The position numbers and the translations under genes are program-made. DNA of 64,000 bases from the human T2T-CHM13v2.0 reference genome, Homo sapiens. The stretch is taken from assembly GCF_009914755.1 (NCBI RefSeq), contig NC_060933.1; one strand, given 5' to 3'. The notes below the pieces were generated by a model that was not told the DNA's origin, made no database searches, and saw only the letters and a list, made by a program, of their open reading frames with translations. Shown here piece by piece: positions 14,485 through 64,000 of this stretch (its first letter is position 1; each line of letters opens with the position of its first letter).

Positions 14485-14519
14485 GGAACGGAACGGAACG
14501 GAACGGAACGGAACGGAAC
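14485..14519 (+). repeat. (GGAAC)7 variant microsatellite within the array
   Basis: Seven consecutive GGAAC units read directly; shorter runs occur at ~5965-5989 and ~57596-57615 (as GTTCC). Confidence 0.85.
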
Positions 14520-17500
14520 GGAATGGAATGGAATGGCATGGAATGGAATCAACGCGAGTGCAGGGGAATTGAATGGAATGGAATTCAATGGAATGGAATC
14601 TTCCGCAATGGAATGGAATGGAATGGAATGGAATGGAATCAACCCGAGTGCAATGGAATGGAGTGGAATGGAATGGAATGGAATAGAACAACCCGAATGG
14701 AATGGAATGTAATGGAGAGTAAGGGAGTTGAATAGAATCAATCCGAATGTAATGGAATGGAATGGAACGGAATGGAAAGGAATGGAATGGAATGCAATGG
14801 AATGGAATCAACCCGAGTTCAATGAAATGGAGAGGAATGGAATGGAATGGAATGGAAACTACCCGAATGGAATGGAATGTAATGGAGTGTAAGGGAATTG
14901 AATAGAATCAATCCGAATGTAATGGAATGGAATGGAACGGAATGGAATGGAATGGAATGGAATGGAATGGAATGGAATGCAATGGAATGGAATCAACCCG
15001 AGTGCAATCAAATGGAATCGAATGGAATGGAATGCAATGGAATGGATTCAACTTGAATGGAATGGAAAGAATGGAATCAACACGAGTGGAATGACATGGA
15101 TTGGAATGGAATGGAATGGAATCAACCCGAGTACAGGGGAATGGAATGGAATGGAATGCAATGGAATGGAATCATCCGTAATGGAATGGAAAGGAATGGA
15201 ATGGAATGGAATGGAATGGAATGGAATGGAATCAACTCGATTGCAATCGAATGGAATGGAATGGAATTAACCCGAATAGAATGGAATGGAATGGAATGGA
15301 ACGGAACGGAATGGAATGGAATGGAATGGAATGGAACGGAAAGGAAGGGAATGGAATGGAATAGAATGGAATGGAATGGAATCAAAGCGAGTGCAGGGGA
15401 ATGGAATGGAACGGAATGCAATGGAATGGAATCTTCCGGAATGGAATGCAATGGAGTGGAATGGAATGGAATCAACCCGAGTGCAGGGGAATGGAATGGA
15501 ATGGAATGCAATGGAATGGAATCATCCGGAATGGAATGGAATGGAATGGAATGGAATGGAATGGAATGGAATCAACCCGAGTGCGATGGAATGGAGTGGA
15601 ATGGAATGGAATGGAATGGAACAACCCGAATGGAATGGAATGTAATGGAGAGTAAGGGAGTTGAATAGAATCAATTCGAATGTAATGGAATGGAATGCAA
15701 CGGAATGGAATGGAATGGAATGGAATGGAAGGCAATGGAATGGAATCAACCTGAGTACAATGGAATGGAATGGAATTTAATGGAATGGAATGGAATGGAA
15801 TGATACGGAATAGAATGGAATGGAACGAACTGGAATGGAATGGAATGGAATGGAATGGAATGGAATGGAATGGAATGGAATCGTTCCGAGTGGAATAGGA
15901 GGGAATGTATTCGAGTGGAATGGAAAGGAATGGAATCAACAAGAGTGGAATGGAAGGGAATGGAATGGAATGGAAACTAATAGAATGGAATCAACCCGAG
16001 TGGAATGGAATGGAAAGGACTGGAATGGAATGGAATGGAATGGAATCAACTCGATTGTAATGGAATGGAATGGAATGGAATGGAATGGAATGGAATTAAC
16101 CCGAATAAAATGGAAGGGAATGGAATGGAATGGAAACTAATAGAATGGAATCAACCCGAGTGGAATGGAATGGAAAGGACTGGAATGGAATGGAATGGAA
16201 TGGAATCAACTCGATTGTAATGGAATGGAATGGAATGGAATGGAATGGAATGGAATGGAATGGAATTAACCCGAATACAATGGAATGGAATGGAAAGGAA
16301 TGGAATGGAGGGGAATGGAATGGAATCAACCCGAGTGCAGGGGAATGGAATGGAATGGAATGCAATGGAATGGAATCATCCGGAATGGAATGGAATGGAA
16401 TGGAATGCAAAGCAATGGAATCAACTCGATTGCAGTGGAATGGAATGGAATGGAAAGGAATACATTGGAATCAACCTGAGTGGAATGAATGGAAAGGACT
16501 GGAATGGAGTGGAATGGAATGGAATGCAATGGAATGGAATGGAATGGAATCAACTTGATTGGAATGGAATGGAATGGAATGGAATGGAATGGAATCAACC
16601 CGACTGCAGGGGAATGGAATGGAATGGAATGCAATGGAATGGATTCAACTTGAATGGAATGGAAAGAATGGAATCAACACGAGTGGAATGGCATGGATTG
16701 GAATGGAATGGAATGGAATCAACCCGAGTACAGGGGAATGGAATGGAATGGAATGCAATGGAATGGAATCATCCGTAATGGAATGGAAAGGAATGGAATG
16801 GAATGGAATGGAATGGAATGGAATGGAATGGAATGGAATGGAATCAACTCGATTGCAATCGAATGGAATGGAATGGAATTAACCCAAATAGAATGGAATG
16901 GAATGGAATGGAATGGAACGGAATGGAACGGAATGGAATGGAATGGAATGGAATGGAATGGTATGGAATGGAATGGAATGGTACGGAATAGAATGGAATG
17001 GAACGAATTGTAATGGAATGGAATTGAATGGAATGGAATGGAATGGAATGGATTGGAATGGATTGCAATGGAATGAAATGGAATGGAATGGAATGGAATC
17101 AATCATGGAAGGGAATGTAATGGAGTGTAAAGAAGGGAATGGAATCAACCCGAGTGGAATGCAAGGCAATGGAATGGAATGGAAAGGAATGGAATGGAAT
17201 CAACTAGATTGTAATGGAATGGAATGGAATGGAATGGAATGGAATGGAATTAACCGGAATAGAATGGAATGGAATGGAATGGAACGGAATGGAATGGAAT
17301 GGAAGGGAATGGAATCAACACGAGTGCAGGGGAATGGAATGGAATGGAATGCAATGGAATGGAATCATCCGGAATGGAATGGAATGGAATGGAATCAACT
17401 CCATTGCAATGGAATGGAATGGAATGGAATGGAATAGAATGGAATGGAATTAACCCGAATAGAATCGAATGCAATAGAATGGAATGCAACGGAACCGAAT

Positions 17501-20500
17501 GGAGTGGAATGGAATGGAATGGAATCTACCCGAGTACAGGGGAATGGAATGGAATGGAATGCAATGGAATGGAGTCATCCGTAATGGAATGGAAAGGAAT
17601 GGAATGGAATGGAATGGAATGGAATGGAATGGAATGGAATCCACTCAATGGCAATCGAATGGAATGGAATGGAATTAACCCGAATAGAATGGAATGGAAT
17701 GGAATGGAACGGAACGGAATGGAATGGAATGGAATGGAATGGAATGGAACGCAACGGAATGGAATGGAATGGAATGGAATGGAATCAACGCGAGTGCAGG
17801 GGAATGGAATGGAATGGAATGCAATGGAATGGAATCTTCCGGAATGGAATGGAATGGAATGAAATGCAGTCGATTCAACTCGATTGCAATGGAATGGAAT
17901 AGAATGGAATGGAATAGAATGGAATGGAATTAACCCGAATAGAATGGAATGGAATGGAACGGAATGGAACGGAAGGGAATGGAATGGAATGGAATGGAAT
18001 GGTATGGAATGGAATGGAATGGTACGGAATAGAATGGAATGGAACGAATTCTAATGCAATGGAATTGAATTGAATGGAATGGAATGGAATGGAATCAACG
18101 CGAGTGCAGGGGAATGTAATGGAACGGAATGCAATGGAATGGAATCATCCGGAATGGAATGGAATGGAAAGGAATGGAATGGAATGGAATCAACACGAGT
18201 GCAATGGAATGGAGTGGAATGGAATGGAATGGAATGGAACAACCCGAATGGAATGGAATGTAATGGACAGTAAGGGAGTTGAATAGAATCAATCCGAATG
18301 TAATGGAATGGAATGCAACGGAATGGAATGGAATGGAATGGAATGGAATGGAATGGAATGCAAAGGAATGGAATCAACCCGAGTGGAATGGCATGGAATG
18401 GAATGCAATTGAATGGAATGGAATGGAATCAACTCGAGTGGAAAGGAATGGAATGGAATGGAAAGGAATGGAATGAAGTCAACTCGAGTGGAATGGAATG
18501 GAATGGAATGGATTGGAATGGATTGCAATGGAATGAAATGGAATGGAATGGAATGGAATCAATCATTCCGAGTGGAATGGAAGGGAATGTAATAGAGTGG
18601 AAAGAAGGGAATGGAATCAACCCGAGTGGAATGCAAGGCAATGGAATGGAATGGAAAGGAATGGAATGGAATCAACTCGATTGCAATGGAATGGAATGGA
18701 ATGGAATGGAATTAACCGGAATAGAATGGAATGGAATGGAATGGAACGGAATGGAATGGAAGGGAAGGGAATGGAATCAACACGAGTGCAGGGGAATGGA
18801 ATGGAATGGAATGCAATGGAATGGAATCATCCGGAATGGAATGGAATGGAATGGAATCAACTCCATTGCAATGGAATGGAATGGAATGGAATGGAATAGA
18901 ATGGAATGGAATTAAACCGAATAGAATGGAATCCAATATAATGGAATGCAACGGAACCGAATGGAGTGGAATGGAATGGAATGGAATGGAATGGAATGGA
19001 ATGGAATCAACTCGATGGCAATCGAATGGAATGGAATGGAATTAACCCGAATAGAATGGAATGGAATGGAATGGAACGGAACGGAATGGAATGGAATGGA
19101 ATGGAATGGAATGGAATGGAATGGAACGGAACGGAATGGAATGGAATGGAATGGAATGGAATCAACGCGACTGCAGGGGAATGGAATGGAATGGAATGCA
19201 ATGCAATGGAATCTTCCGGAATGGAATGGAATGGAATGAAAGGCAATGGATTCAACTCGATGGCAATGGAATGGAATAGAATGGAATGGAATGGAATGGA
19301 ATGGAATGGAATTGAATGGAATGGAATGCCTTCAAACCGAATGGAATGGAAAGGAATGGAATCAACACGAGTGGAAAGGAATGGAATGGAAAGGAATGGA
19401 ATAGAATGGAATGGTATGGAATAGAATGGAATCGAACGAACTGGAATGGAATGGAATGGAATGGAATGGAATGGAATCGTTCCGAGTGGAATAGGAGGGA
19501 ATGTATTCGAGTGGAATGGAAAGGAATGGAATCAACCAGAGTGGAATGGAAGGGAATGGAATGGAATGGAAACTAATAGAATGGAATCAACCCGAGTGGA
19601 AAGGAATGGAAAGGACTGGAATGGAATGGAATGGAATGGAATGGAATGGAATGGAACCAACTCGATTGTAATGGAATGGAATGGAATGGAATGGAATGGA
19701 ATGGAATGGAATGGAATTAACCCGAATACAATGGAATGGAATGGAATGGAACGGAATGGAGTGGAATGGAATGGAATCAACCCGAGTGCAAGGGAATGGA
19801 ATGGAATGGAATGCAATGGAATGGAATCATCCGGAATGGAATGGAAAGGAATGGAATGCAAAGCAATGGAATCAACTCGATTGCAATGGAATGGAATGGA
19901 ATGGAAAGGAATAGAATTGAATCAACCCGAGTGTAATGGAATGGAAAGGACTGGAATGGAGTGGAATGGAATGGAATGGAATGGAATGGAATCAACTCGA
20001 TTGGAATGGAATCTAATGGAATTGAATGGAATGGAATGGAATGGAATTAACCCGAATAGAATGGAATGGAATGGAATGGAACGGAATGGAATGGAATGGA
20101 ATGGAATGGAATGGAATGGAATCAACCCGACTGCAGGGGAATGGAATGGAATGGAATGGAATGGAATGGAATGGAATGGAATGGAATGGAATGGAATCAT
20201 CCGGAACGGAATGGAATGGAATGGAATGGAATCAACTTGATTGCAATGGAATGGAATGGAATGGAATGGAATGGAATGGAATGGAATGGAATTAACCGGA
20301 ATAGAATGGAATGGAATGGAATGGAACGGAATGGAATGGAATGGAATGGAATGGAATCAACCCGAGTGCAGTGGAATGTAAGGGAGAGTAAGGGAGTTGA
20401 ATAGAATCAATCCGAATGTAATGGAATGGAATGCAACGGAATGGAATGGAATGGAATGGAATGGAATGGAATGGAATGGAATGGAATGGAATTAACCCGA

Positions 20501-23500
20501 ATAAAATGGAATGGAATGGAATGGAACGGAATGGAGTGGAATGGAATGGAATCAACCCGAGTGCAGGGGAATGGAATGGAATGGAATGCAATGGAATGGA
20601 ATCATCCGGAATGGAATGGAATGGAATGGAATGCAATCAACCTGATGCAATGGAATGGAGTGGAATGGAATGGAATGGAATGGAAACATCCCGAATGGAA
20701 TGGAATATAATGGAGTGTAAGGGAATTGAATAGAATCAATCCGAATGTAATGGAATTTAATGGAATGAAATGGAATGGAATGGAATGGAATGGAATCAAC
20801 CCGAGTGCAATGGAATGGATTCGAATGGAATGGAATGGAATGGAATGGATTCAACAAGAATGGAATGGAAAGGAATGGAATCAACCCGAGTGTAATGGCA
20901 TGGAATGGAACGGAATGGAATGGGATGGAATGGAATGGTATGGAATAGAATGGAATGGAATGAAATGGAATGGAATGGAATGGAATGGAATGGAATGGAA
21001 TGGAATGGAATGGAATCGAATGAACTCGTGTGCAATGGAATGGAATGGAATGGATTCATCTCGAATGGAATCAACTCGATTGCAATGGAATGGAATGGAA
21101 TTGAAAGGAATAGAATGGAATCATCCCGAGTGGAATGGAATGGAAAGGACTGGAATGGAGTGGAATGGAATGGAATGGAATTAACCCGAATAGAATGAAA
21201 TGGAACGGAATGGAATGGAATGTAATGGAATGGAATGGAATGGAATCAACCCGAGTGCAGGGGAATGGAATGGAATGGAATGCAATGGAATGGAATCATC
21301 CGGAATGGAAAGGAATGGAATGGAATGGAATGGAATGGAATGGAATGGAATGGAATCAACTCGATTTCAATGGAATGGAATGGAATAGAATGGAATGGAA
21401 TTAACACGAATAGAATGGAATGGAATGGAATTGAATGGAACAGAAAGGAATGGAATGGAATGGAATGGAATCAACCCAAGTGCAGGGGAATGGAATGGAA
21501 TGGAATTCAATGGAATGGAATCATCCGGAATGGAATGGAATGGAATGGAATGGAATGGAATGGAATGGAATCAACCCGAGTGCAATGGAATGGAGAGGAA
21601 TGGAATGGAATGGAATGGAAACTACACGAATCGAATGGAATGTAATGGAGTGTAAGGGAATTGAATAGAATGAATCCGAATGGAATGGAATGGAATGGAA
21701 TCAACGCGAGTGCAGGGGAATGGAATGTAATGGAATGCAATGAAATGGAATCTTCCGGAATGGAATGGAATGGAATGGAATGCAATGGATTCAACTCGAT
21801 TGCAATGGAATGGAATAGAATGGAATGGAATGGAATGGAATGGAATTAACCCGAATAGAATGGAATGGAATGGAACGGAATGGAACGGAACGGAATGGAA
21901 TGGAATGGAATGGAATGGAATGGAATGGAATGGAATGGTGGGGAATGGAATGGAATGGAATGGAATCAACGCGAGTGCAGGGGAATGTAATGGAAAAGAA
22001 TGTAATGGAATGGAATCATCCGGAACGGAATGGAATGGAATGGAATGGAATGGAATCAACCCGAGTGCAATGGAATGGAGGGGAATGGAATGGAATGGAA
22101 TGGAACAACCCGAATGGAATGGAATGTAATGGAGAGTAAGGGAGTTGAATAGAATCAATCCGAATGTAATGGAATGGAATGGAACGGAATGGAATGGAAT
22201 GGAATGGAATGCAATTGAATGGAATCAACCCGAGTACAATGGAATGGAATGGAATGGAATGGAATGGAATGGAATGGAATGGCTTCAAACCGAATGGAAT
22301 GGAAAGGAATGGAATCAACACGAGTGGAATGGAATTGAATGGAATGGAATGCAATCGAATGGAATGGAATGGTATGGAATAGAATGGAATGGAAAGAAAT
22401 GGAATGGAATGGAATGGAATGGAATTTAATGGAATCGTTCCGAGTGCAATAGGAGGGAATGTATTCGAGTGGATTGGAAAGGAATGGAATCAACCAGAGT
22501 GGAATGGAAGGGAATGGAATGGAATGGAAACTAATAGAATGGAATCAACCCGAGTGGAATGGAATGGAAAGGACTGGAATGGAATGGAATGGAATGGAAT
22601 GGAATGGAATGGAATTAACCCAAATACAATGGAATGGAATGGAATGGAACGGAATGGAGTGGAATGGAATGGAATCAACCCGAGTGCAGGGGAATGGAAT
22701 GGAATGGAATGGAATGCAATGGAATGGAATCATCCGGAATGGAATGGAATGGAATGGAATGCAAAGCAATGGAATCAACTCGATTGCAATGGAATGGAAT
22801 GGACTGGAAAGGAATACATTGGAATCAACCCGAGTGGAATGGAATGGAAAGGACTGGAATGGAGTGGAATGGAATGGAATGGAATGGAATGGAATCAACT
22901 CGATTGGAATGGAATGGAATGGAATGGAATGGAATGGAATTAACCCGAATAGAATGGAATGGAATTAAATGGAACGGAACAGAATGAAATGGAATGGAAT
23001 GGAATGGAATGGAATGGAATCAACCCGACTGCAGGGGAATGGAATGGAATGGAATGCAATGGAATGGATTCAACTTGAATGGAATGGAAAGAATGGAATC
23101 AACACGAGTGGAATGGCATGGATTGGAATGGAATGGAATGGAATGAACCCGAGTACAGGGGAATGGAATGGAATGGAATGCAATGGAATGGAATCATCAG
23201 TAATGGAATGGAAAGGAATGGAATGGAATGGAATGGAATGGAATGGAATGGAATGGAATCAACTCGATTGCAATCGAATGGAATGGAATGGAATTAACCC
23301 GAATAGAATGGAATGGAATGGAATGGAACGGAACGGAACGGAACGGAATGGAATGGAATGGAATGGAATGGAATGGAACGGAAAGGAATGGAATGGAATG
23401 GAATGGAATGGAATCAACGCGAGTGCAGGGGAATGGAATGTAATGGAATGCAATGGAATGGAATCTTCCGGAATGGAATGGAATGGAATGGAATGGAATC

Positions 23501-26500
23501 AACCCGAGTGCAATGGAATGGAGTGGAATGGAATGGAATGGAATGGAACAACCCGAATGGAATGGAATGTAATGGAGAGTAAGGGAGTTGAATAGAATCA
23601 TTCCGAATGTAATGGAATGGAATGGAACGGAATGGAATTCAATGGAATGGAATGGAATGCAATGGAATGGAATCAACCCGAGTGCAATGGAATGGAGAGG
23701 AATGGAATGGAATGGAATGGAAACTACCAGAATGGAATGGAATGTAATGGAGTGTAAGGGAATTGAATAGAATCAATCTGAATGTAATGGAATGGAATGG
23801 AACGGAATGGAATGGAATGGAATGGAATGGAATGGAATGGAATGGAATCAACAAGAGTGCAATCGAATGGAATCGAATGGAATGCAATGCAATGGAATGG
23901 ATTCAACTTGAATGGAATGGAAAGAATGGAATCAACACGAGTGGAATGGCATGGATTGGAATGGAATGGAATGGAATCAACCCGAGTACAGGGGAATGGA
24001 ATGGAATGGAATGCAATGGAATGGAATCATCCGTAATGGAATGGAAAGGAATGGAATGGAATGGAATGGAATGGAATCAACTCGATTGCAATCGAATGGA
24101 ATGGAATGGAATTAACCCAAATAGAATGGAATGGAATGGAATGGAACGGAACAGGAATGGAATGGAATGGAATGGAATGGAATGGAACGGAACGGAACGG
24201 AATGGAATGGAATGGAATGGAACGGAATGGCATGGAATCAACGCGAGTGTAGGGGAATGGAATGGAATGGAATGCAATGGAATGGAATCTTCCGGAATGG
24301 AATGGAATGGAATGGAATGAAATGCAATGGATTCAACTCGATTGCAATGGAATGGAATAGAATGGAATGGAATGGAATGGAATGGAATTAACCCGAATAG
24401 AATGGAATGGAATGGAATGGAACGGAATGGAACGGAATGGAATGGAATGGAATGGAATGGAATGGAATGGAATGGAATGGAACGGAATGGTATGGAATGG
24501 AATGGAATAGTACGGAATAGAATGGAATGGAAAGAATTGTAATGGAATGGAATTGAATGGAATGGAATGGAATGGAATGGAATCAACGCGCGTGCAGGGG
24601 AATGTAATGGAACGGAATGCAATGGAATGGAATCATCCGGAATGGAATGGAATGGAATGGAATGGAATCAACCCGAGTGCAATGGAATGGAGTGGAATGG
24701 AATGGAATGGAATGGAACAACCCGAATGGAATGGAATGGAATGGAGAGTAAGGGAGTTGAATAGAATCAATCCGAATGTAATGGAATGGAATGCAACGGA
24801 ATGGAATGGAATGGAATGGAATGGAATGCAATGGAATGGAATCAACCCGAGTACAATGGAATGGAATGGAATGGAATGGAATGGAATGGAATGGAATGGA
24901 TTGGAATGCCTTCAAACCGAATGGAATGGAAAGGAATGGAATCAACACGAGTGGAATGGAATGGAATGGAAAGGAATAGAATGGAATGGAATGGTACGGA
25001 ATAGAATGGAATGGAACGAAATGGAATGGAATGGAATGGAATAGAATGGAATCGTTCAGAGTGGAATAGGAGGGAACGTATTCGAGTGGAATGGAAAGGA
25101 ATGGAATCAACCAGAGTGGAATGGAAGGGAATGGAATGGAATGGAAACTAATAGAATGGAATCAACCCGAGTGGAATGGAATGGAAATGACTGGAATGGA
25201 ATGGAATGGAATGGAATGGAATGGAATCAACTCGATTGTAATGGATTGGAATGGAATGGAATTGAAGGGAATGGAATGGAATTAACCCGAATACAACGGA
25301 ATGGAATGGAATGGAACGGAATGGAGTGGAATGGAATGGAATCAACCCGAGTGCAGGGGAATGGAATGGAATGGAATGCAATGGAATGGAATCATCCGGA
25401 ATGGAATGGAATGGAATGGAATGCAAAGCAATGGAATCAACTCGATTGCAATGGAATGGAATGGAATGGAAAGGAATACATTGGAATCAACCCGAGTGGA
25501 ATGGAATGGAAAGGACTGGAATGGAGTGGAATGGAATGGAATGGAATGGAATGGAATCAACTCGATTGGAATGGAATGGAATGGAATGGAATGGAATGGA
25601 ATGGAATGGAATTAACCCGAATAGAATGGAATGGAATTAAATGGAAAGGAACGGAATGGAATGGAATGGAATGGAATGGAATGGAATGGAATCAACCCGA
25701 CTGAAGGGGAATGGAATGGAATGGAATGCAATGGAATGGACTCAACTTGAATGGAATGGAAAGAATGGAATCAACAAGAGTGGAATGGCATGGATTGCAA
25801 TGGAATGGAATGGAATCAACCCGAGTACAGGGGAATGGAATGGAATGGAATGCAATGGAATGGAATCATCCGTAATGGAATGGAAAGGAAAGGAATGGAA
25901 TGGAATCAACTCGATTGCAATCGCATGGAATGGAATGGAATGTAATGGAAAGGAATGGAATGGAATGAAATGGGATGGAATGGAATGCAATGGAATGGAA
26001 TCAACCCGAGTGCAATCGAATGGAATCGAATGGAATGGAATGCAATGGAATGGATTCAACTTGAATGGAATGGAAAGAATGGAATCAACACGAGTGGAAT
26101 GGCATGGATTGGAATGGAATGGAATGGAATCAACCCGAGTACAGGGGAATGGAATGGAATGGAATGCAATGGAATGGAATCATCCGTAATGGAAAGGAAA
26201 GAAATGGAATGGAATGGAATGGAATGGAATGGAATGGAATCAACTCGATTGCAATCGAATGGAATGGAATGGAATTAACCCGAATAGAATGGAATGGAAT
26301 GGAATGGAACGGAACGGAACGGAATGGAATGGAATGGAATGGAATGGAATGGAACGGAAAGGAATGGAATGGAATGGAATGGAATCAACGCGCGTGCAGG
26401 GGAATGGAATGTAATGGAATGGAATCTTCCGGAATGGAATGGAATGGAATGGAATCAACCCGAGTGCAATGGAATGGAGTGGAATGGAATGGAATGGAAT

Positions 26501-26795
26501 GGAACAACCTGAATGGAATCGAATGTAATGGAGAGTAAGGGAGTTGAATAGAATCAATCCGAATGTAATGGAATGGAATGGAACGGAATGGAATTGAATG
26601 GAATGGAATGGAATGCAATGGAATGGAATCAACCCGAGTGCAATGGAATGGAGAGGAGGGGAATGGAATGGAGTGGAAACTACCCGAATGGAATGGAATG
26701 TAATGGAGTGTAAGGGAATTGAATAGAATCAATCCGAATGTAATGGAATGGAATGGAACGGAATGGAATGGAATGGAATGGAATGGAAAGAAGGG

Positions 26796-26823
26796 AATGG
26801 AATCAACCCGAGTTGATTCCATT
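26796..26823. other. Satellite strand-switch (inversion) breakpoint, quasi-palindrome AATGGAATCAAC-CCGA-GTTGATTCCATT
   Basis: Read directly at 26791-26830 (aagggaatggaatcaacccgagttgattccattgctttgc): 12-bp perfect inverted arms at 26796-26807 and 26812-26823 around a 4-nt spacer; pentamer polarity flips here and nowhere else that I can see. Confidence 0.95.
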
Positions 26824-29800
26824 GCTTTGCATTCCGTTCCATTCCATTCCTTTTCATTGTATTCGGGTTAATTCCATTGCATTCCATTCCATTCCTTTCC
26901 ATTCCATTCCATTCCATTACAATGGAGTTGATTCCATTCCATTCCATTCCATTCCATTCCATTCCAGTCCTTTCCATTCCATTCCACTCGGGTTGATTCC
27001 ATTCTATTAGTTTCCATTCCATTCCATTCCCTTCCATTGCACTCTGGTTGATTGCATTCCTTTCCATTTCACTCGAATACATTCCCTCCTATTCCACTCG
27101 GAACGATTCCATTCCATTCCATTCCATTCCATTCCATTCCATTTCGTTCCATTCCATTCTATTCCGTACCATTCCATTCCATTCCATTCCATTCCATTCG
27201 ATTCCATTCCACTCGTGTTGATTACATTCCTTTCCATTCCATTCAGTTTGAAGGCATTCCATTCCATTCAATTCCATTCCATTCCATTCCATTCCATTCC
27301 ATTCCATTCCATTCCATTCCATTGTACTCGGTTTGATCCCATTCCATTGCATTCTATTCCATTCCATTCCATTCCATTCCATTCCATTCCATTCCGGATG
27401 ATTCCATTCCATTGCATTCCATTCCATTCCATTCCCCTGCACTCGGGTTGATTACATTCCATTCCCTTCCCTTCCATTCCTTTCCATTCCATTCCATTCC
27501 ATTCTATTCGGATGAATTCCATTCCATTCCATTCCATTGCAATCGAGTTGATTCCATTACATTCCATTCCATTCCGTTCCGGATGATTCCATTCCATTGC
27601 ATTCCATTCCATTCCATTCCCCTGCAGTCGGTTTGATTCCTTTCCATTCCATTCCATTCCATTCCATTCTATTCCATTCCGTTCCATTCCATTGCATTCC
27701 ATTCTATTCGGGTTAATTCCATTCCATTCCTTTCCATTCCATTCCAATCGAGTTAATTCCATTGCATTGCATTCCATTCCACTGCATTCCAGTCCTTTCC
27801 ATTCCATTCCACTCGGGTTGATTCCATTCTATTCCTTTCCATTCCATTCCATTGCAATAGAGTTGATTCCATTGCATTGCATTCCATTCCATTCCATTCC
27901 ATTCCGGATGATTCCATTCCATTGCATTCCATTCCATTCCATTCCCCTGCACTCGGGTTGATTCCATTCCATTCCACTCCATTCCGTTCCATTGCATTCC
28001 ATTCCATTGTATTCGGGTTAATTCCATTCCATTCCATTCCATTCCATTCCATACCATTCCATTACAATCGAGTTGATTCCATTCCATTCCATTCCATTCC
28101 ATTCCATTCCATTCCATTCCATTCCATTCCTTTCCATTCCATTCCACTCGGGTTGATTCCATTCTATTAGTTTCCATTCCATTCCATTCCCTTCCATTCC
28201 ACTCTGGTTGATTCCATTCCTTTCCATTCCACTCGAATACATTCCCTCCTATTCCCTCGGAACAATTCCATTCCATTCCATTGCATTCTATTCCATTCCA
28301 TTTCGTTCATTCCATTCTATTCCATTCCGTTCCGTTCCGTTCAATTCCATTCCATTCCATTCCATTCCATTCAATTCCATTCCATTACAATTCGTTGCAT
28401 TCCATTCTATTCCGTACCACTCCATTCCATTCCATACCATTCCATTCCATTCCATTCCATTCCGTTCCATTCCGTTCCATTCCATTGCATTCCATTCTAT
28501 TCGGGTTAATTCCATTCCATTCCATTCCATCCCATTCTATTACATTGCATTGCAATCGAGTTGAATCCATTGCATTTCATTCCATTCCATTCCATTCCAT
28601 TCCATTCCGGAAGATTCCATTCCATTGCATTCCATTCCATTCCATTCCCCTGCACTCGCGTTGATTCCATTCCATTCCATTCCATTCCATTCCATTCCAT
28701 TCCGTTCCGTTCCATTCCATTCCATTACATTCCATTCCATTCCGTTCCGTTCCATTCCATTCCATTCCATTCTATTCGGGTTAATTCCATTCCATTCCAT
28801 TCGATTGCAATCGTGTTGATTCCATTCCATTCCATTCCATTCCATTCCATTCCATTCCATTCCATTCCATTCCTTTCCATTCCATTACGGATGATTCCAT
28901 TCAATTGCATTCCATTCCATTCCATTCCCCTGTACTCGGGTTGATTCCATTCCATTGCATTCCAATCCATGCCCTTCCACTCGTGTTGATTCCATTCTTT
29001 CCATTCCATTCAAGTTGAATCCATTCCATTGCATTCCATTCCATTCGATGTCATTCGATTGCACTCGGGTTGATTCCATTCCATTACATTCCATTCCGTT
29101 CCATTCCATTCCATTCCATTCCATTCCGTTCCATTCCATTCCATTACATTCGGATTGATTCTATTCAATTCCCTTACACTCCTTTACATTCCATTCCATT
29201 CGGGTAGTTTCCATTCCATTCCATTCCATTCCTCTCCATTCCATTGCACTCGGGTTGATTCCATTCCATTGCATTCCATTCCATTCCATTCAATTCCATT
29301 CCGTTCCATTCCATTCCATTACATTCGGATTGATTCTATTCAACTCCCTTACACTCCATTACATTTCATTCCGTTCGGGTTGTTCCATTCCATTCCATTC
29401 CATTCCACTCCATTCCATTGCACTCGGGTTTATCCCATTCCATTCCATTCCATTCCATTCCATTCCATTCCATTCCGGAAGATTCCATTCCATTGCATTC
29501 CATTCCATTCCATTCCCCTGCACTCGCGTTGATTCTATTCCATTCCATTCCATTCCATTCCATTCCATTCCATTCCATTCCATTCCTTTCCGTTCCATTC
29601 CATTCCATTCCATTCCATTCCATTCCATTCCATTCCGTTCCGTTCCGTTCCATTCCATTCCATTCCATTCCATTCTATTCGGGTTAATTCCATTCCATTC
29701 CATTCGATTGCAATCGAGATGATTCCATTCCATTCCATTCCATTCCATTCCATTCCATTCCATTCCATTGCACACGGGTTCATTCCATTCCATTCCATTC

Positions 29801-32059
29801 CATTCCATTCCATTCCATTTCATTCCATTCCATTTCATTCCATTCCATTCTATTCCGTACCATTCCATTCCATCCCATTCCATTCCGTTCCATTCCATGC
29901 CATTACACTCGGGTTGATTCCATTCCTTTCCATTCCATTCTTGTTGATTCCATTCCATTCCATTCCATTCCATTTCATTCCATTCCATTCCATTACATTC
30001 GGATTGATTCTATTCAATTCCCTTACACTCCATTACATTCCATTCCATTCGGGATGTTTCCATTCCATTCCATTCCATTCCACTCCATTCCATTGCATCA
30101 GGTTGATTGCATTCCATTCCATTCCATTCCATTCCGGATGATTCCATTCCATTGCATTCCATTCCATTCCATTCCCCTGCACTCGGGTTGATTCCATTCC
30201 ATTCCATTCCATTCCATTCCATTCCATTCCATTCCGTTCCATTCCATTCCATTCCATTCTATTCCGGTTGATTCCATTCCATTCCTTTCGATTCCATTCC
30301 ATTCCATTCCATTCCATTGCAGTCGAGTTGATTCCATTCCATTCCATTCCATTCCGTTCCGGATGATTCCATTCCATTCCATTCCATTCCATTCCATTCC
30401 CCTGCAGTCGGGTTGATTCCATTCCATTCCATTCCTTTCCATTCCATTCCATTCCATTCCGTTCCATTCCATTCCATGCTATTCTATTCGGGTTAATTCC
30501 ATTGCATTCCATTCCATTCCATTCCATTCCAATCGAGTTGATTGCATTCCATTCCATTCCATTCCATTCCACTCCATTCCAGTCCTTTCCATTACTTTAC
30601 ACTCGGGTTGATTCCATTCTATTCCTTTCCATTCCATTCCATTCCATTGCAATCGTGTTGATTCCATTGCTTTGCATTCCATTCCATTCCATTCCTTTCC
30701 GGATGATTCCATTCCATTGCATTCCATTCCTTTCCATTCCCCAGCACTCGGGTTGATTCCATTCCATTCCACTCCATTCCGTTCCATTCCATTCCATTCC
30801 ATTTTATTCGGGTTAATTCCATTCCATTCCATTCCATTCCGTTCCATTCCATTACAATCGAGTTGATTCCATTCCATTCCATTCCATTCCATTCCATTCC
30901 ATTCCATTCCGGATGATTCCATTCCATTGCATTCCGTTCCATTACATTCCCCTGCACTCGTGTTGATTCCATTCCATTCCATTCCATTCCATTCAATTCC
31001 ATTCCATTACAATTCGTTCCATTCCATTCTATTCCCTACCATTCCATTCCATTCCATTCCATTCCTTTCCATTCCATTACGGATGATTCCATTCCATTGC
31101 ATTACCTTCCATTCCATTCCCCTGTACTCGGGTTGATTCCATTCCATTCCATTCCATTCCATTCTATTCCATTCCATTCCGGAAGATTCCATTCCATTGC
31201 ATTCCATTCCATTCCATTCCCCTGCACTCGCGTTGATTCCATTCCATTCCATTCCATTCCATTCCATTCCATTCCGTTCCGTTCCATTCCATTCCATTCC
31301 ATTCCGTTCCGTTCCATTGCATTCCATTCCATTCTATTCGGGTTAATTCCATTCCATTCCATTCGATTGCAATCGTGTTGATTCCAATCCATTCCATTCC
31401 ATTCCATTCCATTCCATTCCATTCCTTTCCATTCAATTACGGATGATTCCATTCCATTGCATTCCATTCCATTCCATTCCCCTGTACTCGGGTTGTTTCC
31501 ATTCCATTGCATTCCAATCCATGCCCTTCCACTCGTGTTGATTCCATTCTTTCCATTCCATTCAAGTTGAATCCATTCCATTGCATTCCATTCAATTCGA
31601 TTCCATTCGATTGCACTCGGGTTGAATCCATTCCATTGCATTCCATTCCATCCCATTCCATTCCATTGCATTCCATTCCGTTCCATTCCATTCCATTACA
31701 TTCGGATTGATTCTATTCAATTCCCTTACACTCCATTACATTCCATTCCATTCGGGTAGTTTCCATTCCATTCCATTCCATTCCTCTCCATTCCATTGCA
31801 CTCGGGTTGATTCCATTCCATTGCATTCCATTCCATTCCATTCAATTCCATTCCGTTCCATTCCATTCCATTCCATTCGGATTGATTCTATTCAACTCCC
31901 TTACTCTCCATTACATTCCATTCCATTCGGGTTGTTCCATACCATTCCATTCCATTCCACTCCATTCCATTGCACTCGGGTTTATTCCATTCCATTCCAT
32001 TCCATTCCATTCCATTCCATTCCGGAAGATTCCATTCCATTGCATTCCATTCCATTCCA

Positions 32060-35000
32060 TTCCATTCCCCTGCACTCGTGTTGATTCCATTACCTTCTAT
32101 TCCATTCCATTCCGTTCCATTCCATTGCATTCCATTCTATTCCGGTTAATTCCATTCCATTCCATTCCATTCCATTCCATTCCATTCCATTGCAATCGAG
32201 TTGATTCCATTCCATTCCTTTCCATTCCATTCCATTGCCTTGCATTCCAATCGGGTTGTTTCCATTCCCTTCTTTCCACTCCATTACATTCCCTTCCATT
32301 CCACTCGGAATGATTGATTATATTCCATTCCATTCCATTTCATTCCATTGCAATCCATTCCAATCCATTCCATTCCATTCCATTCCACTCGAGTTGATTT
32401 CATTCCATTCCTTTCCATTCCATTCCGTTCCTTTCCATTCGAGTTGATTCCATTCCATTCCATTCCATTGCATTCCATTCCATGCCATTCCACTCGGGTT
32501 GATTCCATTCCTTTGCATTCCATTCCATTCCATTCCATTCCATTCCATTCCATTCCGTTGCATTCCATTCCATTACATTCCGATTGATTCTATTCAACTC
32601 CCTTACTCTCCATTACATTCCATTCCATTCGGGTTGTTCCATTCCATTCCATTCCATTCCACTCCATTCCATTGCACTCGGGTTGATTCCATTCCATTCC
32701 ATTCCATTCCATTCCATTCCATTCCGGATGATTCCATTCCATTGCATTCCGTTCCATTACATTCCCCTGCACTCGCGTTGATTCCATTCCATTCCATTCC
32801 ATTCCATTCAATTCCATTCCATTACAATTCGTTCCATTCCATTCTATTCCCTACCATTCCATTCCATTCCATACCATTCCATTCCATTCCATTCCATTCC
32901 ATTCCATTCCATTCCATTCCGTTCCATTCCGTTCCATTCCATTCCATTCCATTCTATTCGGGTTAATTCCATTCCATTCCATTCCATTCCATTCTATTCC
33001 ATTCCTTTGCAATCGAGTTGAATCCATTGCATTTCATTCCATTCCATTCCATTCCATTCCGGAAGATTCCATTCCATTGCATTCCATTCCATTCCATTCC
33101 CCTGCACTCGCGTTGATTCCATTCCATTCCATTCCATTCCATTCCATTCCATTCCGTTCCTTTCCGTTCCGTTCCATTCCATTCCATTCCATTCCATTCC
33201 GTTCCGTTCCATTCCATTCCATTCCATTCTATTCGGGTTAATTCCATTCCATTCCATTCGATTGCAATCGTGTTGATTCCATTCCATTCCATTCCATTCC
33301 ATTCCATTCCATTCCATTCCTTTCCATTCCATTACGGATGATTCCATTCCATTGCATTCCATTCCATTCCATTCCCCTGTACTCGGGTTGATTCCATTCC
33401 ATTGCATTCCAATCCATGCCCTTCCACTCGTGTTGATTCCATTCTTTCCATTCCATTCAAGTTGAATCCATTCCATTGCATTCCATTCTATTCGATTCCA
33501 TTCCATTCCATTCCGTTTCATTCCATTCCATTACATTCGGATTGATTCTATTCAATTCCCTTACACTCCATTACATTCCATTCTATTCGGGTAGTTTCCA
33601 TTCCATTCCATTCCATTCCTCTCCATTCCATTGCACTCGGGTTGATTCCATTCCATTGCATTCCATTCCATTCCATTCAATTCCATTCCGTTCCATTCCA
33701 TTCCATTACATTCTAATTGATTCTATTCATCTCCCTTAGTCTCCATTACATTCCATTCCATTCGGGTTGTTCCATTCCATTCCATTCCATTCCACTCCAT
33801 TCCATTGCACTCGGGTTGATTCCATTCCATTCCATTCCATTCCATTCCATTCCATTCCGGAAGATTCCATTCCATTGCATTCCATTCCATTCCATTTCCC
33901 TGCACTCGCGTTGATTCCATTCCATTCCATTCCATTCCATTCCATTCCATTCCACTCCATTCCATTGCACTCGGGTTGATTCCATTCCATTCCATTCCAT
34001 TCCATTCCATTCCATTCCGGATGATTCCATTCCATTGCATTCCGTTCCATTACATTCCCCTGCACTCGCGTTGATTCCATTCAATTCCATTCCATTCCAT
34101 TCAATTCCATTCCATTACAATTCGTTCCATTCCATTCTATTCCGTACCATTCCATTCCATACCATTCCATTTCATTCCATTCCATTCCATTCCATTCCAT
34201 TCCATTCCGTTCCACTCCGTTCCATTCCATTCCATTGCATTCTATTCGGGTTAATCCCATTCCATTCCATTCCATTCCATTCTATTCCATTCCATTGCAA
34301 TCGAGTTGAATCCATTGCATTTCATTCCATTCCATTCCATTCCATTCCGGAAGATTCCATTCCATTGCATTCCAATCCATGCCATTCCCCTGCACTCGCG
34401 TTGATTCCATTCCATTCCATTCCATTCCATTCCATTCCATTCCATTCCATTCCATTCCTTTCTGTTCCGTTCCATTCCATTCCATTACATTCCATTCCAT
34501 TCCATTCTATTCCATTCCGTTTCATTCCATTCCATTCCATTCTATTTGGGTTAATTCCATTCCATTCCATTCGATTGCAATCGTGTTGATTCCATTCCAT
34601 TCCATTCCATTCCATTCCTTTCCATTCCATTACGGATGATTCCACTCCATTGCATTCCATTCCATTCCATTCCCCTGTACTCGGGTTGATTCCATTCCAT
34701 TGCATTCCAATCCATGCCCTTCCACTCGTGTTGATTCCATTCTTTCCATTCCATTCAAGTTGAATCCATTCCATTGTATTCCTTTCCATTCGATTCCATT
34801 CGACTGCACTCGGGTTGATTCCATTCCATTGCATTCCATTCCATTCCATTCCATTCCATTCCATTCCATTCCATTCCGTTCCATTCCATTCCATTACATT
34901 CGGATTGATTCTATTCAATTCCCTTACACTCCATTACATTCCATTCCATTCGGGTAGTTTCCATTCCATTCCATTCCATTCCTCTCCATTCCATTGCACT

Positions 35001-38000
35001 CGGGTTGATTCCATTCCATTGCATTCCATTCCATTCCATTGCATTCCATTCCGTTCCATTCCATTCCATTACATTCGGATTGATTCTATTCAATTCCCTT
35101 ACACTCCATTACATTCCATTCCATTCGGGTAGTTTCCATTCCATTCCATTCCATTCCTCTCCATTCCATTGCACTCGGGTTGATTCCATTCCATTGCATT
35201 CCATTCCATTCCATTCAATTCCATTCCGTTCCATTCCATTCCATTCCATTCGGATTGATTCTATTCAACTCCCTTACTCTCCATTACATTCCATTCCATT
35301 CGGGTTGTTCCATACCATTCCATTCCATTCCACTCCATTCCATTGCACTCGGGTTTATTCCATTCCATTCCATTCCATTCCATTCCGGAAGATTCCATTC
35401 CATTGCATTCCATTCCATTCCATTCCATTCCAATCGAGTTGATTCCATTCCATTGCATTCCATTCCATTCCACTCCATTCCAGTCCTTTCCATTCCATTA
35501 CACTCGGGTTGATTCCATTCCATTCCACTCCATTCCGTTCCATTCCATTCCATTCCATTGTATTCGGGTTAATTCCATTCCATTCCATTCCATTCCATTC
35601 CATTCCATTCCATTCCATTCCATTACAATCGAGTTGATTCCATTCCATTCCATTCCATTCCATTCCATTCCATTCCAGTCCTTTCCATTCCATTCCACTC
35701 GGGTTGATTCCATTCTATTAGTTTCCATTCCATTCCATTCCCTTCCATTCCACTCTGGTTGATTCCATTCCTTTCCATTCCACTCGAATACATTCCCTCC
35801 TATTCCACTCGGAACGATTCCTTTCCATTCCATTCCATTCCATTCCAATCCATTCCATTCCATTCCAGTTCGTTCCATTCCGTTCTATTCGGTACCATTC
35901 CATTCCATTCCATTCCTTTCCATTCCATTCCTTTCCACTCGTGTTGATTCCATTCCTTTCCATTCCATTCGGTTTGAAGGCATTCCATTCCATTCAATTC
36001 CATTCCATTCCATTCCATTCCCTTCCATTCTATTCCATTGCATTGCAATCGAGTTGAATCCATTGCCTTTCATTCCATTCCATTCCATTCCATTCCATTC
36101 CATTCCGGAAGATTCCATTCCATTACATTCCATTCCATTCCATTCCCCTGCACTCGCGTTGATTCCATTCCATTCCATTCCATTCCATTCTATTCGGGTT
36201 AATTCCATTCCATTCCATTCCATTCCATTCCATTCCAATCGAGTTGATTCCATTCCATTCCATTCCACTCCATTCCAGTCCTTTCCATTCCATTCCACTC
36301 GGGTTGATTCCAATGTATTCCTTTCCATTCCATTCCATTCCATTGCAATCGAGTTGATTCCATTGCTTTGCATTCCATTCCATTCCATTCCATTCCGGAT
36401 GATTCCATTCCATTGCATTCCATTCCATTCCATTCCCCTGCACTCGGGTTGATTCCATTCCATTCCACTCCATTCCGTTCCATTCCATTCCATTCCATTG
36501 TATTCAGGTTAATTCCATTCCATTCCATTCCATTCCATTCCATTACAATCGAGTTGATTCCATTCCATTCCATTCCATTCCATTCCATTCCAGTCCTTTC
36601 CATTCCATTACACTCGGGTTGATTCCATTCTATTAGTTTCCATTCCATTCCATTCCCTTCCATTCCACTCTGGTTGATTCCATTCCTTTCCATTCCATTT
36701 AATTCCATTCCATTCCATTCCATTCCATTCCAATCCGTTCCATTCCATTCCATTCTATTCCACTGCAATCGACTTGATTCCATTCCATTCCATTCTATTC
36801 CATTCCATTCCATTCCATTCCATTCCATTCCATTCCATTCCATTTTGTTCCAATCCATTCTATTCGGAACCATTCCATTCCATTCCATTCCATTCCATTG
36901 CATTCCATTCCATGCCATTCCACTCGGGTTGATTCCATTCCATTCCATTCCATTCCATTCCATTCCATTCCGTTCCATTCCATTTCATTACATTCATTTT
37001 GATTCTATTCAATTCCCTTACACTCCATTATATTCCAATCCATTCTGGTTGTTTCCATTCCATTCCATTCCATTTCACTCCATTCCATTGCACTCGGTTT
37101 GATTCCATTCCATTCCATTCCATTCCGGATGATTCCATTCCATTGCATTCCATTCCATTCCATTCCCCTGCACTCAGGTTGATTCCATTCCATTCCATTC
37201 CACTCCATTCGGTTCCGTTCCATTCCATTCTATTGCATTCCATTCTATTCGGGTTAATTCCATTCCATTCTATTCCATTCCATTCCATTCCATTCCATTG
37301 CAATGGAGTTGATTCCATTCCATTCCATTCCATTCCGGATGATTCCATTCCATTGCATTGCATTCCATTCCATTCCCCTGCACTCGTGTTGATTCCATTA
37401 CCTTCTATTCCATTTCATTCCGTTCCATTCCATTGCATTCCATTCTATTCCGGTTAATTCCATTCCATTCCATTCCATTCCATTCCATTCCATTCCATTG
37501 CAATCGAGTTGATTCCATTCCATTCCTTTCCATTCCATTCCATTGCCTTGCATTCCAATCGGGTTGTTTCCATTCCCTTCTTTCCACTCCATTACATTCC
37601 CTTCCATTCCACTCGGAATGATTGATTATATTCCATTCCATCCCATTTCATTCCATTGCAATCCATTCCAATCCATTCCATTCCATTCCATTCCACTCGA
37701 GTTGATTTCATTCCATTCCTTTCCATTCCATTCCGTTCCTTTCCATTCGAGTTGATTCCATTCCATTCCATTCCATTGCATTCCATTCCATGCCATTCCA
37801 CTCGGGTTGATTCCATTCCTTTGCATTCCATTCCATTCCATTCCATTCCATTCCATTCCATTCCATTCCGTTGCATTCCATTCCATTACATTCGGATTGA
37901 TTCTATTCAAGTCCCTTACTCTCCATTACATTCCATTCCATTCGGGTTGTTCCATTCCATTCCATTCCATTCCACTCCATTCCATTGCACTCGGGTTGAT

Positions 38001-63700: not shown

Positions 63701-64000
63701 GTACTCGGGTTGATTCAATTCCATTGCATTCCATTCCATTCCATTCCATTCCATTCCATTCCGTTGCATTCCATTCCATTACATTCGGATTGATTCTATT
63801 CAACTACCTTACTCTCCATTACATTCCATTCCATTCGGGTTGTTCCATTCCATTCCATTCCATTCCACTCCATTCCATTGCACTCGGGTTGATTCCATTC
63901 CATTCCATTCCATTCCATTCCATTCCATTCCATTCCGGATGATTCCATTCCATTGCATTCCGTTCCATTACATTCCCCTGCACTCGCGTTGATTCCATTC
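54750..64000 (-). repeat. Higher-order duplication, ~6.7 kb offset (~54750-57250 vs ~61480-64000, second copy truncated by the window end)
   Basis: Private variants ATTCGACTCC (54922/61641), CTGCTATTCCACTCGGAACGGTTCC (55212/61941), AATCAATTGC (55981/62715) and CAACTACCTT (57052/63801). Confidence 0.9.

What the first reader, a model, noticed from the sequence alone, without database searches (positions are those of the whole stretch)
26796..26823. Seamless satellite inversion joined through a 5-bp microhomology inside the satellite's own quasi-palindromic decamer
Seen: the left parent reads GGAAAGAAGGGAATGGAATCAACC-CGAGT-GGAATGCAAG in intact copies (e.g. 9022-9060). The right parent reads CATTGCAAT-CGAGT-TGATTCCATTGCTTTGC in intact copies (e.g. 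36341-36371). The junction is CAACC-CGAGT-TGATTCCATTGCTTTGC, so the parents overlap exactly at CGAGT (26809-26813) with no inserted bases. This creates a 12-bp hairpin stem with a 4-nt loop. Inference: GGAAT and ATTCC strands share little homology, so the near-palindromic CAACYCGAKT word is the built-in site for an opposite-strand template switch or microhomology-mediated join (compare CAACTCGAGTGG at ~8853 and ~8903, one base from a perfect CAACTCGAGTTG palindrome). That predicts a sequence-encoded inversion hotspot in satellite III. Strand switches in HSat3 arrays are known from complete assemblies; I am not aware that this breakpoint rule is.
Basis: partly seen in the sequence, partly recalled or inferred. 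Interest (0 to 1): 0.8.

Follow-up and report, generated by a model that had tools for sequence, protein, structure and literature searches.

The report
Copied strand-switch scar in chr9 satellite
This is a real point where human satellite III flips strand, made once by a 5-base overlap join and then copied dozens of times along chromosome 9 as the array grew, so it is an old scar and not evidence of a recurring breakage hotspot.

Summary
The window is pure HSat3 with one clean GGAAT-to-ATTCC switch at 26799-26820. It has no inserted bases, a CGAGT overlap shared by both parental units, and a 12-bp/4-nt hairpin. A 5-bp or longer overlap is unlikely for a random join here (P about 0.0014), so a microhomology-mediated join is well supported.

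The hotspot inference is not supported. The exact 22-mer occurs 44 times in the genome, or 46 with any loop, all on chr9 51-76 Mb. All 44 share the same rare flanks, so they are copies of one ancestral event.

The window's copy is the twin of one 8.80 Mb upstream (0 substitutions in 3 kb). It was made by the already published recent multi-megabase 9qh+ tandem duplication of CHM13.

Five junction sequences account for 186 of at least 227 strand switches in the array. All five touch a decamer-type interruption, but that is only weakly above what base composition predicts (P 0.02-0.16). About nine minor classes join elsewhere.

Strand switches in this array are already in print. The junction anatomy and the founder structure may not be.

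The parts
1..26808 (+). HSat3 arm in GGAAT orientation. By the site map it belongs to a block of about 228 kb that begins at a B1 switch at chr9:62,853,014.
   Evidence: Polarity profile. No ATTCCATTCC in 1-26790. Site map.
26804..26813 (+). Left-parent decamer CAACCCGAGT, intact.
   Evidence: All 4 of 4 intact left-parent copies in the window continue with GG.
26809..26813 (.). CGAGT, the 5-bp overlap shared by the left parent (CAACCCGAGT) and the right parent (AATCGAGTTG, the reverse complement of CAACTCGATT).
   Evidence: Chance of 5 bp or more is 0.0014.
26799..26820 (+). Diagnostic 22-mer junction GGAATCAACCCGAGTTGATTCC (founder class A1).
   Evidence: One site in the window. 44 exact copies in the genome, all on chr9.
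26796..26823 (.). Inverted repeat made by the join: 12-bp stems (26796-26807 and 26812-26823) and a 4-nt loop (26808-26811).
   Evidence: DNA fold -12.7 kcal/mol, z = -5.1.
26814..64000 (-). HSat3 arm in ATTCC orientation. By the site map it belongs to a block of about 212 kb that ends at a B1 switch at chr9:63,292,725.
   Evidence: Polarity profile. No GGAATGGAAT in 26830-64000. Site map.

Best explanation
This is a fossil rearrangement junction inside the chr9 HSat3 array, and it has no function of its own. It arose once. A GGAAT-strand unit ending in CAACCCGAGT was joined to an ATTCC-strand unit beginning AATCGAGTTG, through their shared CGAGT. The join was made either by microhomology-mediated end joining of two broken ends or by a replicative template switch to the opposite strand. 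The sequence cannot tell these two apart. The hairpin is a geometric by-product of joining two units that both carry AATGGAATCAAC next to the decamer. The junction was then carried passively, in both orientations, by nested duplications and inverted duplications hundreds of kilobases to megabases long. That gave at least 46-48 copies across chr9 51-76 Mb. The copy in this window was made last, by the recent tandem duplication of about 8.7 Mb that underlies CHM13's 9qh+ karyotype. Shown: the single origin, the microhomology, the amplification and the pairing. Inferred: the repair pathway.
For: All 44 of 44 exact copies share the flanks for at least 45 bp on the left and 70 bp on the right, and subsets share private substitutions. 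Allowing any loop gives 46 sites, and the extra two differ by a CpG-to-TpG change and are themselves a pair 10.62 Mb apart. Two further point variants were seen at 53,784,326 and 54,509,819. In the nearest-neighbour table, L002-L017 (52.13-59.66 Mb) pair one-to-one with WIN and with L018-L034 apart from unpaired L024 (60.83-70.29 Mb). The pairs keep the same order and orientation, except that L003 matches both L019 and L020. Over 30 paired sites and 90,535 aligned bases there are 3 substitutions and 14 small indel events. The window copy against L007 has 0 substitutions in 3002 bp and one 20-bp indel. L036-L038 pair with L011-L009 in reversed order and opposite orientation at 99.5-99.7% identity. 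The A1 family is deep, with median pairwise divergence 5.3% over +-300 bp against 1.5-1.6% for A2 and B2. P(overlap >=5 bp) = 0.0014 for random joins. Nurk et al. 2022 (PMC9186530, passages) report the recent multi-megabase tandem HSat3 duplication on chr9, matching CHM13's 9qh+ karyotype.
Against: The repair pathway is inferred from one ancestral event. The predicted reciprocal junction was not found: 3 of 3 hits to the strict pattern lie inside ordinary ATTCC-oriented array. A simple two-break inversion is therefore not shown. Further upstream the flank resembles a different sub-repeat, so the left parent is a mosaic or its exact lineage is rare. The tool says its counts are lower bounds. 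No reads or other assemblies could be examined.
Confidence: 0.85

Rival explanations
1. One reading: the quasi-palindromic decamer CAACYCGAKT is a sequence-encoded inversion hotspot, so junctions like this arise again and again independently.
For: Both parental breakpoints lie in decamers, which happens in about 2% of random blunt joins. All five abundant chr9 junction classes touch a decamer-type word: A1 on both sides, A2 by 1 nt, A9 on the right, B1 on the left, B2 on the left. The chance that all five do so, given their overlap lengths, is P = 0.021.
Against: All 46 of 46 decamer-centred palindromic junctions genome-wide are on chr9, and all 44 exact copies share one flank context, so they are one lineage. 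No other chromosome's HSat2/3 array has one. The mirror-type ATTCC-to-GGAAT join centred on the decamer has 3 hits, of which only 1 is within chr9's 48-77 Mb satellite region and its context was not read. If A2 is not counted, P(at least 4 of 5) = 0.16. Over my hand-assigned list of 19 classes, 7-10 touch a decamer, giving P = 0.03-0.63. About nine classes join at GAATTC, GGCC, GGAAT|CCATT and similar sites.
Confidence: 0.05
2. Fold-back or sister-chromatid fusion origin. A hairpin at the quasi-palindrome, or a fusion of sister chromatids at one break, made a mirror-image inverted duplication whose symmetry later decayed.
For: There is a 12-bp perfect stem with a 4-nt loop at the join. The A1 family is old, with about 5% median divergence, so some decay is conceivable.
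Against: No k-mer diagonal is centred on the junction. Ungapped mirror identity next to the junction is 0.11-0.34. Gapped identity of the left flank against the reverse complement of the right flank is 0.73-0.79, no better than random decamer-ending segments (median 0.79). The +-45-70 bp that all 44 copies share is already not mirrored beyond 12 bp.
Confidence: 0.07
3. Assembly or chimeric-read artefact.
For: None was found. The region is highly repetitive, and no reads could be inspected here.
Against: There are 44 copies with copy-specific substitutions and indels, in a consistent order in both halves of the duplication. A-type and B-type switches alternate along the chromosome at 172 of 199 adjacent site pairs. 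Independent assemblies also show about 129 to hundreds of switches per haplotype in this array (preprints, passages).
Confidence: 0.01

Closest known systems
Mosaic strand-switch structure of the chr9 HSat3B5 array (Altemose et al. preprint 10.1101/2021.07.12.452052, section 7 read; Nurk et al. 2022 PMC9186530, passages; 2026 preprints, passages)
   Same: This junction is one of those switches. My minimum of 227 switches fits the published 'over 200'. Copying of founder junctions explains the reported correlation of switch number with array length (r = 0.90).
   Different: The passages I read give no junction sequences, no microhomology and no grouping into founder classes. One preprint calls the switches 'stochastic byproducts' of array expansion. 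Here, 186 of at least 227 are copies of five joins.
Recent multi-megabase tandem HSat3 duplication at 9q12 (the 9qh+ karyotype of CHM13; Nurk et al. 2022)
   Same: The window lies in the second copy. Its junction has a twin 8.80 Mb upstream with 0 substitutions in 3 kb.
   Different: Nothing differs in kind. I add approximate bounds (copy 1 about 52.0-60.75 Mb, copy 2 about 60.75-71.4 Mb), a divergence of 3.3e-5, and about 1.76 Mb extra in copy 2.
Microhomology-mediated rearrangement: polymerase-theta end joining, or replicative template switching (FoSTeS/MMBIR). Named from my own knowledge, not from a call.
   Same: The join is seamless through 5 shared bases with no insertion, and the two templates are in opposite orientation.
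   Different: The pathway is not testable from sequence. There is only one event, and no reciprocal junction was found.
Quasi-palindrome template-switch mutagenesis. Recalled, not from a call.
   Same: A near-palindromic word lies at the site of a strand switch.
   Different: That process corrects a quasi-palindrome towards perfection over a few bases. Here the loop CCGA stays imperfect, and the arms continue for hundreds of kilobases in opposite orientation.

Membership tests
Human satellite III (HSat3), chr9 array | (GGAAT)n pentamers interrupted by CAACCCGAGT-type decamers | tested here: met
   No 200-bp window has fewer than 8 pentamer hits. CAACCCGAGT occurs 194 times, and decamer-like words cover 12-15% of the array. 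The decamer appears in a SatIII primer in Jolly et al. 2004.
Human satellite III (HSat3), chr9 array | Assignment to subfamily B5 by diagnostic k-mers | not tested
   Taken from the Altemose preprint, which names the large chr9 array HSat3B5, and from the hub's chr9 coordinates.
Microhomology-mediated junction | A short identical stretch present in both parents at the breakpoint, kept once, with no inserted bases | tested here: met
   CGAGT is present in 4 of 4 left-parent and 11 of 11 right-parent copies.
Microhomology-mediated junction | Overlap longer than expected for blunt joining of the same sequences | tested here: met
   P(>=5 bp) = 0.0014 in 400,000 simulated joins.
Microhomology-mediated junction | Dependence on a specific pathway (polymerase theta, or replication restart) | not testable with these tools
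   This needs experiments.
Recurrent sequence-encoded hotspot | Independent events at the same motif, recognisable by different flanks | tested here: not met
   All 44 of 44 exact copies share flanks. All 46 any-loop sites are on chr9, and the two inexact ones are a CpG-to-TpG pair whose flanks were not read.
Recurrent sequence-encoded hotspot | Independent junction classes enriched at the motif over a composition-aware null | tested here: inconclusive
   Five of 5 abundant classes touch a decamer (P = 0.021, or 0.16 if A2 is not counted). Over 19 hand-assigned classes, 7-10 touch one (P = 0.03-0.63). The census is incomplete: at least 27 switches are unidentified.
Fold-back / palindromic inverted duplication | Arms are mirror images outward from the junction, with or without a short spacer | tested here: not met
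Simple two-break inversion | A reciprocal junction joining the two other parental ends | tested here: not met
   The loose pattern was not specific (120 hits). The strict pattern gave 3 hits, and none is a polarity switch. The reciprocal may have been lost or may have a different form.
CHM13 9qh+ tandem duplication | Sites paired in the same order and orientation at a near-constant offset, with near-zero divergence | tested here: met
   16 A1, 9 A2 and 5 B2 pairs at offsets of 8.69-8.81 and 10.57-10.63 Mb. There are 3 substitutions in 90,535 bp.

The most novel reading that the evidence does not exclude
The 220 or more strand switches of the chr9 HSat3 array are not the product of ongoing, scattered inversion. 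They descend from about five founder joins: A1 CGAGT, A2 TGCA, A9 GG, B1 blunt, B2 CGGA/ACGGA. Each founder touches a decamer-type interruption, because those interruptions and variant pentamers hold the only strand-symmetric words in a GGAAT array. The mosaic and its scaling with array length come from amplification. The founder k-mers would then serve as a lineage barcode for reconstructing how 9q12 heterochromatin grew and why 9qh size varies among people.
Probability: 0.45. Interest if true: 0.5.

Novelty: new member of a known kind. Interest (0 to 1): 0.3.

Why it matters
The finding corrects a tempting inference. One neat junction in a satellite says little about mutational hotspots, because junctions are copied along with the array. 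In CHM13, about 82% of the mapped minimum of strand switches in the largest human satellite array trace to five joins. That gives a concrete reason why switch number tracks array length. It also yields short diagnostic words that could be counted in pangenome assemblies to date the joins and follow 9qh expansion. Heat-shock SatIII RNA is made essentially from one strand (Jolly et al. 2004). By inference, GGAAT-to-ATTCC junctions like this one would therefore be points where sense transcription converges.

Tried and rejected
- A whole-arm blastn of the window against itself timed out. I replaced it with k-mer diagonals.
- Mirror symmetry about the junction was rejected.
- A register-preserving, same-sub-repeat join was rejected.
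- A clean higher-order period was not found. The arms show different long-range k-mer spacings.
- The decamer-centred ATTCC-to-GGAAT counterpart gave 3 hits, of which only 1 is within chr9's 48-77 Mb satellite region, and its context was not read.
- The reciprocal junction of A1 was not found. The loose 16-mer was not specific (120 hits). The strict 21-mer gave 3 hits, all ordinary array variants.
- The idea that B2 is B1 with a 4-nt deletion was dropped, because their flanks differ.
- The published Science version of the centromere paper was not held under the id I tried, so only the preprint main text was read.
- That preprint's Tables S6 and S7, and the supplementary figures of the 2026 preprints, could not be seen. 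They may hold breakpoint lists.
- Flank sharing of class A9 was not tested, because only one copy was read.

Full report
**What is in the window.** The 64 kb is uninterrupted HSat3. No 200-bp window has fewer than 8 pentamer hits. It is in GGAAT orientation up to about 26.8 kb and in ATTCC orientation from there to the end, with a single switch. There are no islands of the opposite polarity. The junction reads GGAATCAACCCGAGTTGATTCC at 26799-26820. This 22-mer occurs at one site in the window, where shuffles give none.

- All 4 of 4 copies of AAGAAGGGAATGGAATCAACCCGAGT continue with GG.
- The right parent occurs 11 times, each with CAACTCGATT when read in GGAAT orientation.
- Both parents contain CGAGT at the breakpoint, and the junction keeps one copy with nothing inserted.
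- The join creates 12-bp stems with a 4-nt loop (-12.7 kcal/mol, z = -5.1).
The left parent is therefore a mosaic or a rare lineage.

**Is the overlap more than chance?** I simulated 400,000 joins of a random GGAAT-strand position to a random ATTCC-strand position drawn from this window.
- 65% have no overlap, P(overlap >=4 bp) is 0.0068, and P(overlap >=5 bp) is 0.0014. A microhomology-mediated join is therefore well supported for this event.
Decamer-like words cover only 12-15% of the array. Yet joins with 5 bp or more of overlap touch a decamer on at least one side in 71-100% of cases, against 24% for blunt joins. At 5 bp they touch on both sides in 38% of cases, against 2%.

**Not a fold-back.**
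- No k-mer diagonal is centred on the junction.
- Ungapped mirror identity next to the junction is 0.11-0.34.
- Gapped identity of the left flank to the reverse complement of the right flank is 0.73-0.79. That is no better than 200 random decamer-ending segments, whose median is 0.79.

**One event, many copies.**
- The exact 22-mer occurs 44 times in the genome, all on chr9 between 51.07 and 75.68 Mb, 27 forward and 17 reverse.
- Allowing any 4-nt loop between the stems gives 46 sites. The two extra carry a CpG-to-TpG change and are themselves a pair 10.62 Mb apart. No other chromosome has such a site.
- Two more point variants were seen in a partial listing.
- I read all 44 exact copies with +-1.5 kb of flank. 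All share at least 45 bp on the left and 70 bp on the right, and subsets share private substitutions.
- That left context accounts for only 4 of 194 CAACCCGAGT words in the window, and the right context for 11 of 105 CAACTCGATT words. Independent events cannot explain such uniformity.

**How the copies arose.**
- In the nearest-neighbour table, the copies at 52.13-59.66 Mb pair one-to-one with those at 60.83-70.29 Mb, apart from unpaired L024 and apart from L003, which matches both L019 and L020. The pairs keep the same order and orientation. The offset is 8.69-8.80 Mb at first and 10.57-10.63 Mb later.
- Over 30 paired A1, A2 and B2 sites there are 3 substitutions and 14 small indel events in 90,535 aligned bases, a divergence of 3.3e-5.
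- The window's junction pairs with the copy at 54,279,549, with 0 substitutions in 3002 bp and one 20-bp indel.
[quoted passage not shown] 2022 (PMC9186530, passages read).
- An older layer is inverted. The copies at 71.62-72.19 Mb match those at 55.26-54.78 Mb in reversed order and opposite orientation, at 99.5-99.7% identity.
- The A1 family as a whole is deep, with median divergence 5.3% over +-300 bp, against 1.5-1.6% for A2 and B2. The join therefore predates most of the amplification.

**The other switches.** Generic polarity patterns, class-specific counts and one probe walk gave the five abundant classes below.

| Class | Direction | Join | Exact copies | Flanks shared |
|---|---|---|---|---|
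| A1 | GGAAT to ATTCC | CAACC[CGAGT]TGATTCC, 5-bp overlap; both breakpoints in decamers | 44 | 44 of 44 |
| A2 | GGAAT to ATTCC | CAACCCGAG[TGCA]TTCC, 4-bp overlap that covers the last base of the decamer | 29 | 29 of 29 |
| A9 | GGAAT to ATTCC | GGAATGG\|GTTTATTCC, GG overlap; right breakpoint inside ACTCGGGTTT | 20 | not tested (one copy read) |
| B1 | ATTCC to GGAAT | CCATTGCAC\|ACGGAATGG, blunt; left breakpoint inside ACTCGGGTTG | 82 | 8 of 8 sampled |
| B2 | ATTCC to GGAAT | CCATT[ACGGA]ATGG, 4-5 bp overlap in a decamer variant | 11 | 11 of 11 |

- With the minor classes I mapped 200 sites, 107 A-type and 93 B-type.
- There are 27 adjacent same-type pairs, so at least 27 more switches exist and the total is at least 227.
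- The five classes supply 186 of these, or 82%.
- The tool states that its counts are lower bounds. My listing of minor A-type classes on chr9 stopped at 61.04 Mb, where the output was cut.

**Is there any hotspot signal?**
- All five abundant classes touch a decamer-type word. Given their overlap lengths the chance of this is 0.021. If A2, which overlaps the decamer by a single base, is not counted, P(at least 4 of 5) is 0.16.
- I assigned 19 classes by hand. Seven touch a decamer, 3 are ambiguous and 9 do not. The nine join at GAATTC, GGCC, GGAAT|CCATT and similar sites. This gives P = 0.03-0.63, depending on the baseline and on how the ambiguous ones are counted.
- This is at best a weak, post hoc trend. 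It is what one expects if rare joins use whatever strand-symmetric words the array offers.

**Reciprocal junction.** A simple two-break inversion predicts an ATTCC-to-GGAAT join of a specific form.
- The loose pattern was not specific (120 hits).
- The strict pattern gave 3 hits, all inside ordinary ATTCC-oriented array.
- Reciprocal inversion and non-reciprocal template switching therefore remain undecided.

**What is in print.**
- Altemose et al. preprint, section 7 read: the chr9 HSat3B5 array and the beta satellite arrays hold 'over 200 inversion breakpoints'.
- Nurk et al. 2022, passages: a 'mosaic inversion structure' in HSat arrays.
- 2026 preprint 10.64898/2026.07.22.740206, passages: hundreds of switches, a correlation with array length of r = 0.90, and the switches read as 'stochastic byproducts' of array expansion.
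- 2026 preprint 10.64898/2026.09.03.749043, passages: about 129 switches per haplotype.
- I found no junction sequences, microhomology or founder classes for HSat3 in these passages. Three searches also gave none: 'HSat3 + inversion + strand' (47 papers, passages of 4 read), 'HSat3B5' (4 papers) and 'HSat3 + microhomology' (10 papers, listing only). Supplementary tables and figures could not be seen and may hold such data.

**Verdict.** The thing itself is one ancestral microhomology join, copied about fifty times, most recently by the known 9qh+ duplication. The proposed hotspot rule is not supported in its strong form. A weak compositional form remains open.

Noticed in passing
whole window (chr9:63,054,001-63,118,000) and L007 (chr9:54,278,049-54,281,070): The window lies in copy 2 of the known CHM13 9qh+ tandem duplication. 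From the paired switch sites, copy 1 is about 52.0-60.75 Mb and copy 2 about 60.75-71.4 Mb. There are 3 substitutions in 90,535 bp (3.3e-5). With a recalled rate of about 1.2e-8 per base per generation, that is very roughly 1,400 generations. Copy 2 holds about 1.76 Mb extra between 63.394 and 65.183 Mb, including the unpaired junction L024.
   Followed up: partly
L036-L038 (chr9:71.62-72.19 Mb) against L011-L009 (chr9:55.26-54.78 Mb): An older inverted duplication of about 0.6 Mb. Three junction copies match in reversed order and opposite orientation at 99.5-99.7% identity. It explains how one junction comes to lie in both orientations.
   Followed up: partly
L019 and L020 (chr9:61,043,390 and 61,094,956) against L003 (52,351,754): A local tandem duplication of about 52 kb is present only in copy 2. 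The B1/A1 pair at 61.031/61.043 Mb repeats at 61.082/61.095 Mb, L019 and L020 are identical over 3 kb, and copy 1 has a single pair.
   Followed up: no
chr9:52.3-76.4 Mb (site lists): Four other founder junctions occur only on chr9: B1 CCATTGCACACGGAATGG (82 copies), A2 GGAATCAACCCGAGTGCATTCC (29), A9 GGAACGGAATGGGTTTATTCC (20) and B2 ATTCCATTACGGAATGG (11). Together with A1 they make 186 of at least 227 switches.
   Followed up: yes
chr9:58,699,701 and 69,324,481; 53,784,326; 54,509,819: Point-mutated copies of the junction: CCTGAG (a CpG-to-TpG change, present as a duplication pair), CCCGACTTG and CATCCCGAGTTG.
   Followed up: no
window 1-26808 against 26814-64000: The two arms have different long-range k-mer spacings: about 2.9, 9.6 and 17.2 kb on the left, and about 5.3, 6.4 and 6.7 kb on the right. 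There is no single clean higher-order period.
   Followed up: no
chr7:58.70-59.24 Mb, chr2:89.36-90.39 Mb, chr14:4.70 Mb, chr17:21.96 Mb: Strand switches in smaller HSat arrays on other chromosomes mostly join at GAATTC, CCATTGG or GGAATTGATTCC words. Some occur as inverted pairs, for example chr2:89,357,772 and 90,389,485.
   Followed up: no
window 26799-26820: Heat-shock SatIII RNA is made essentially from one strand (Jolly et al. 2004). Junctions of this type would therefore be points of convergent sense transcription, and B-type junctions points of divergence. This is inference only.
   Followed up: no
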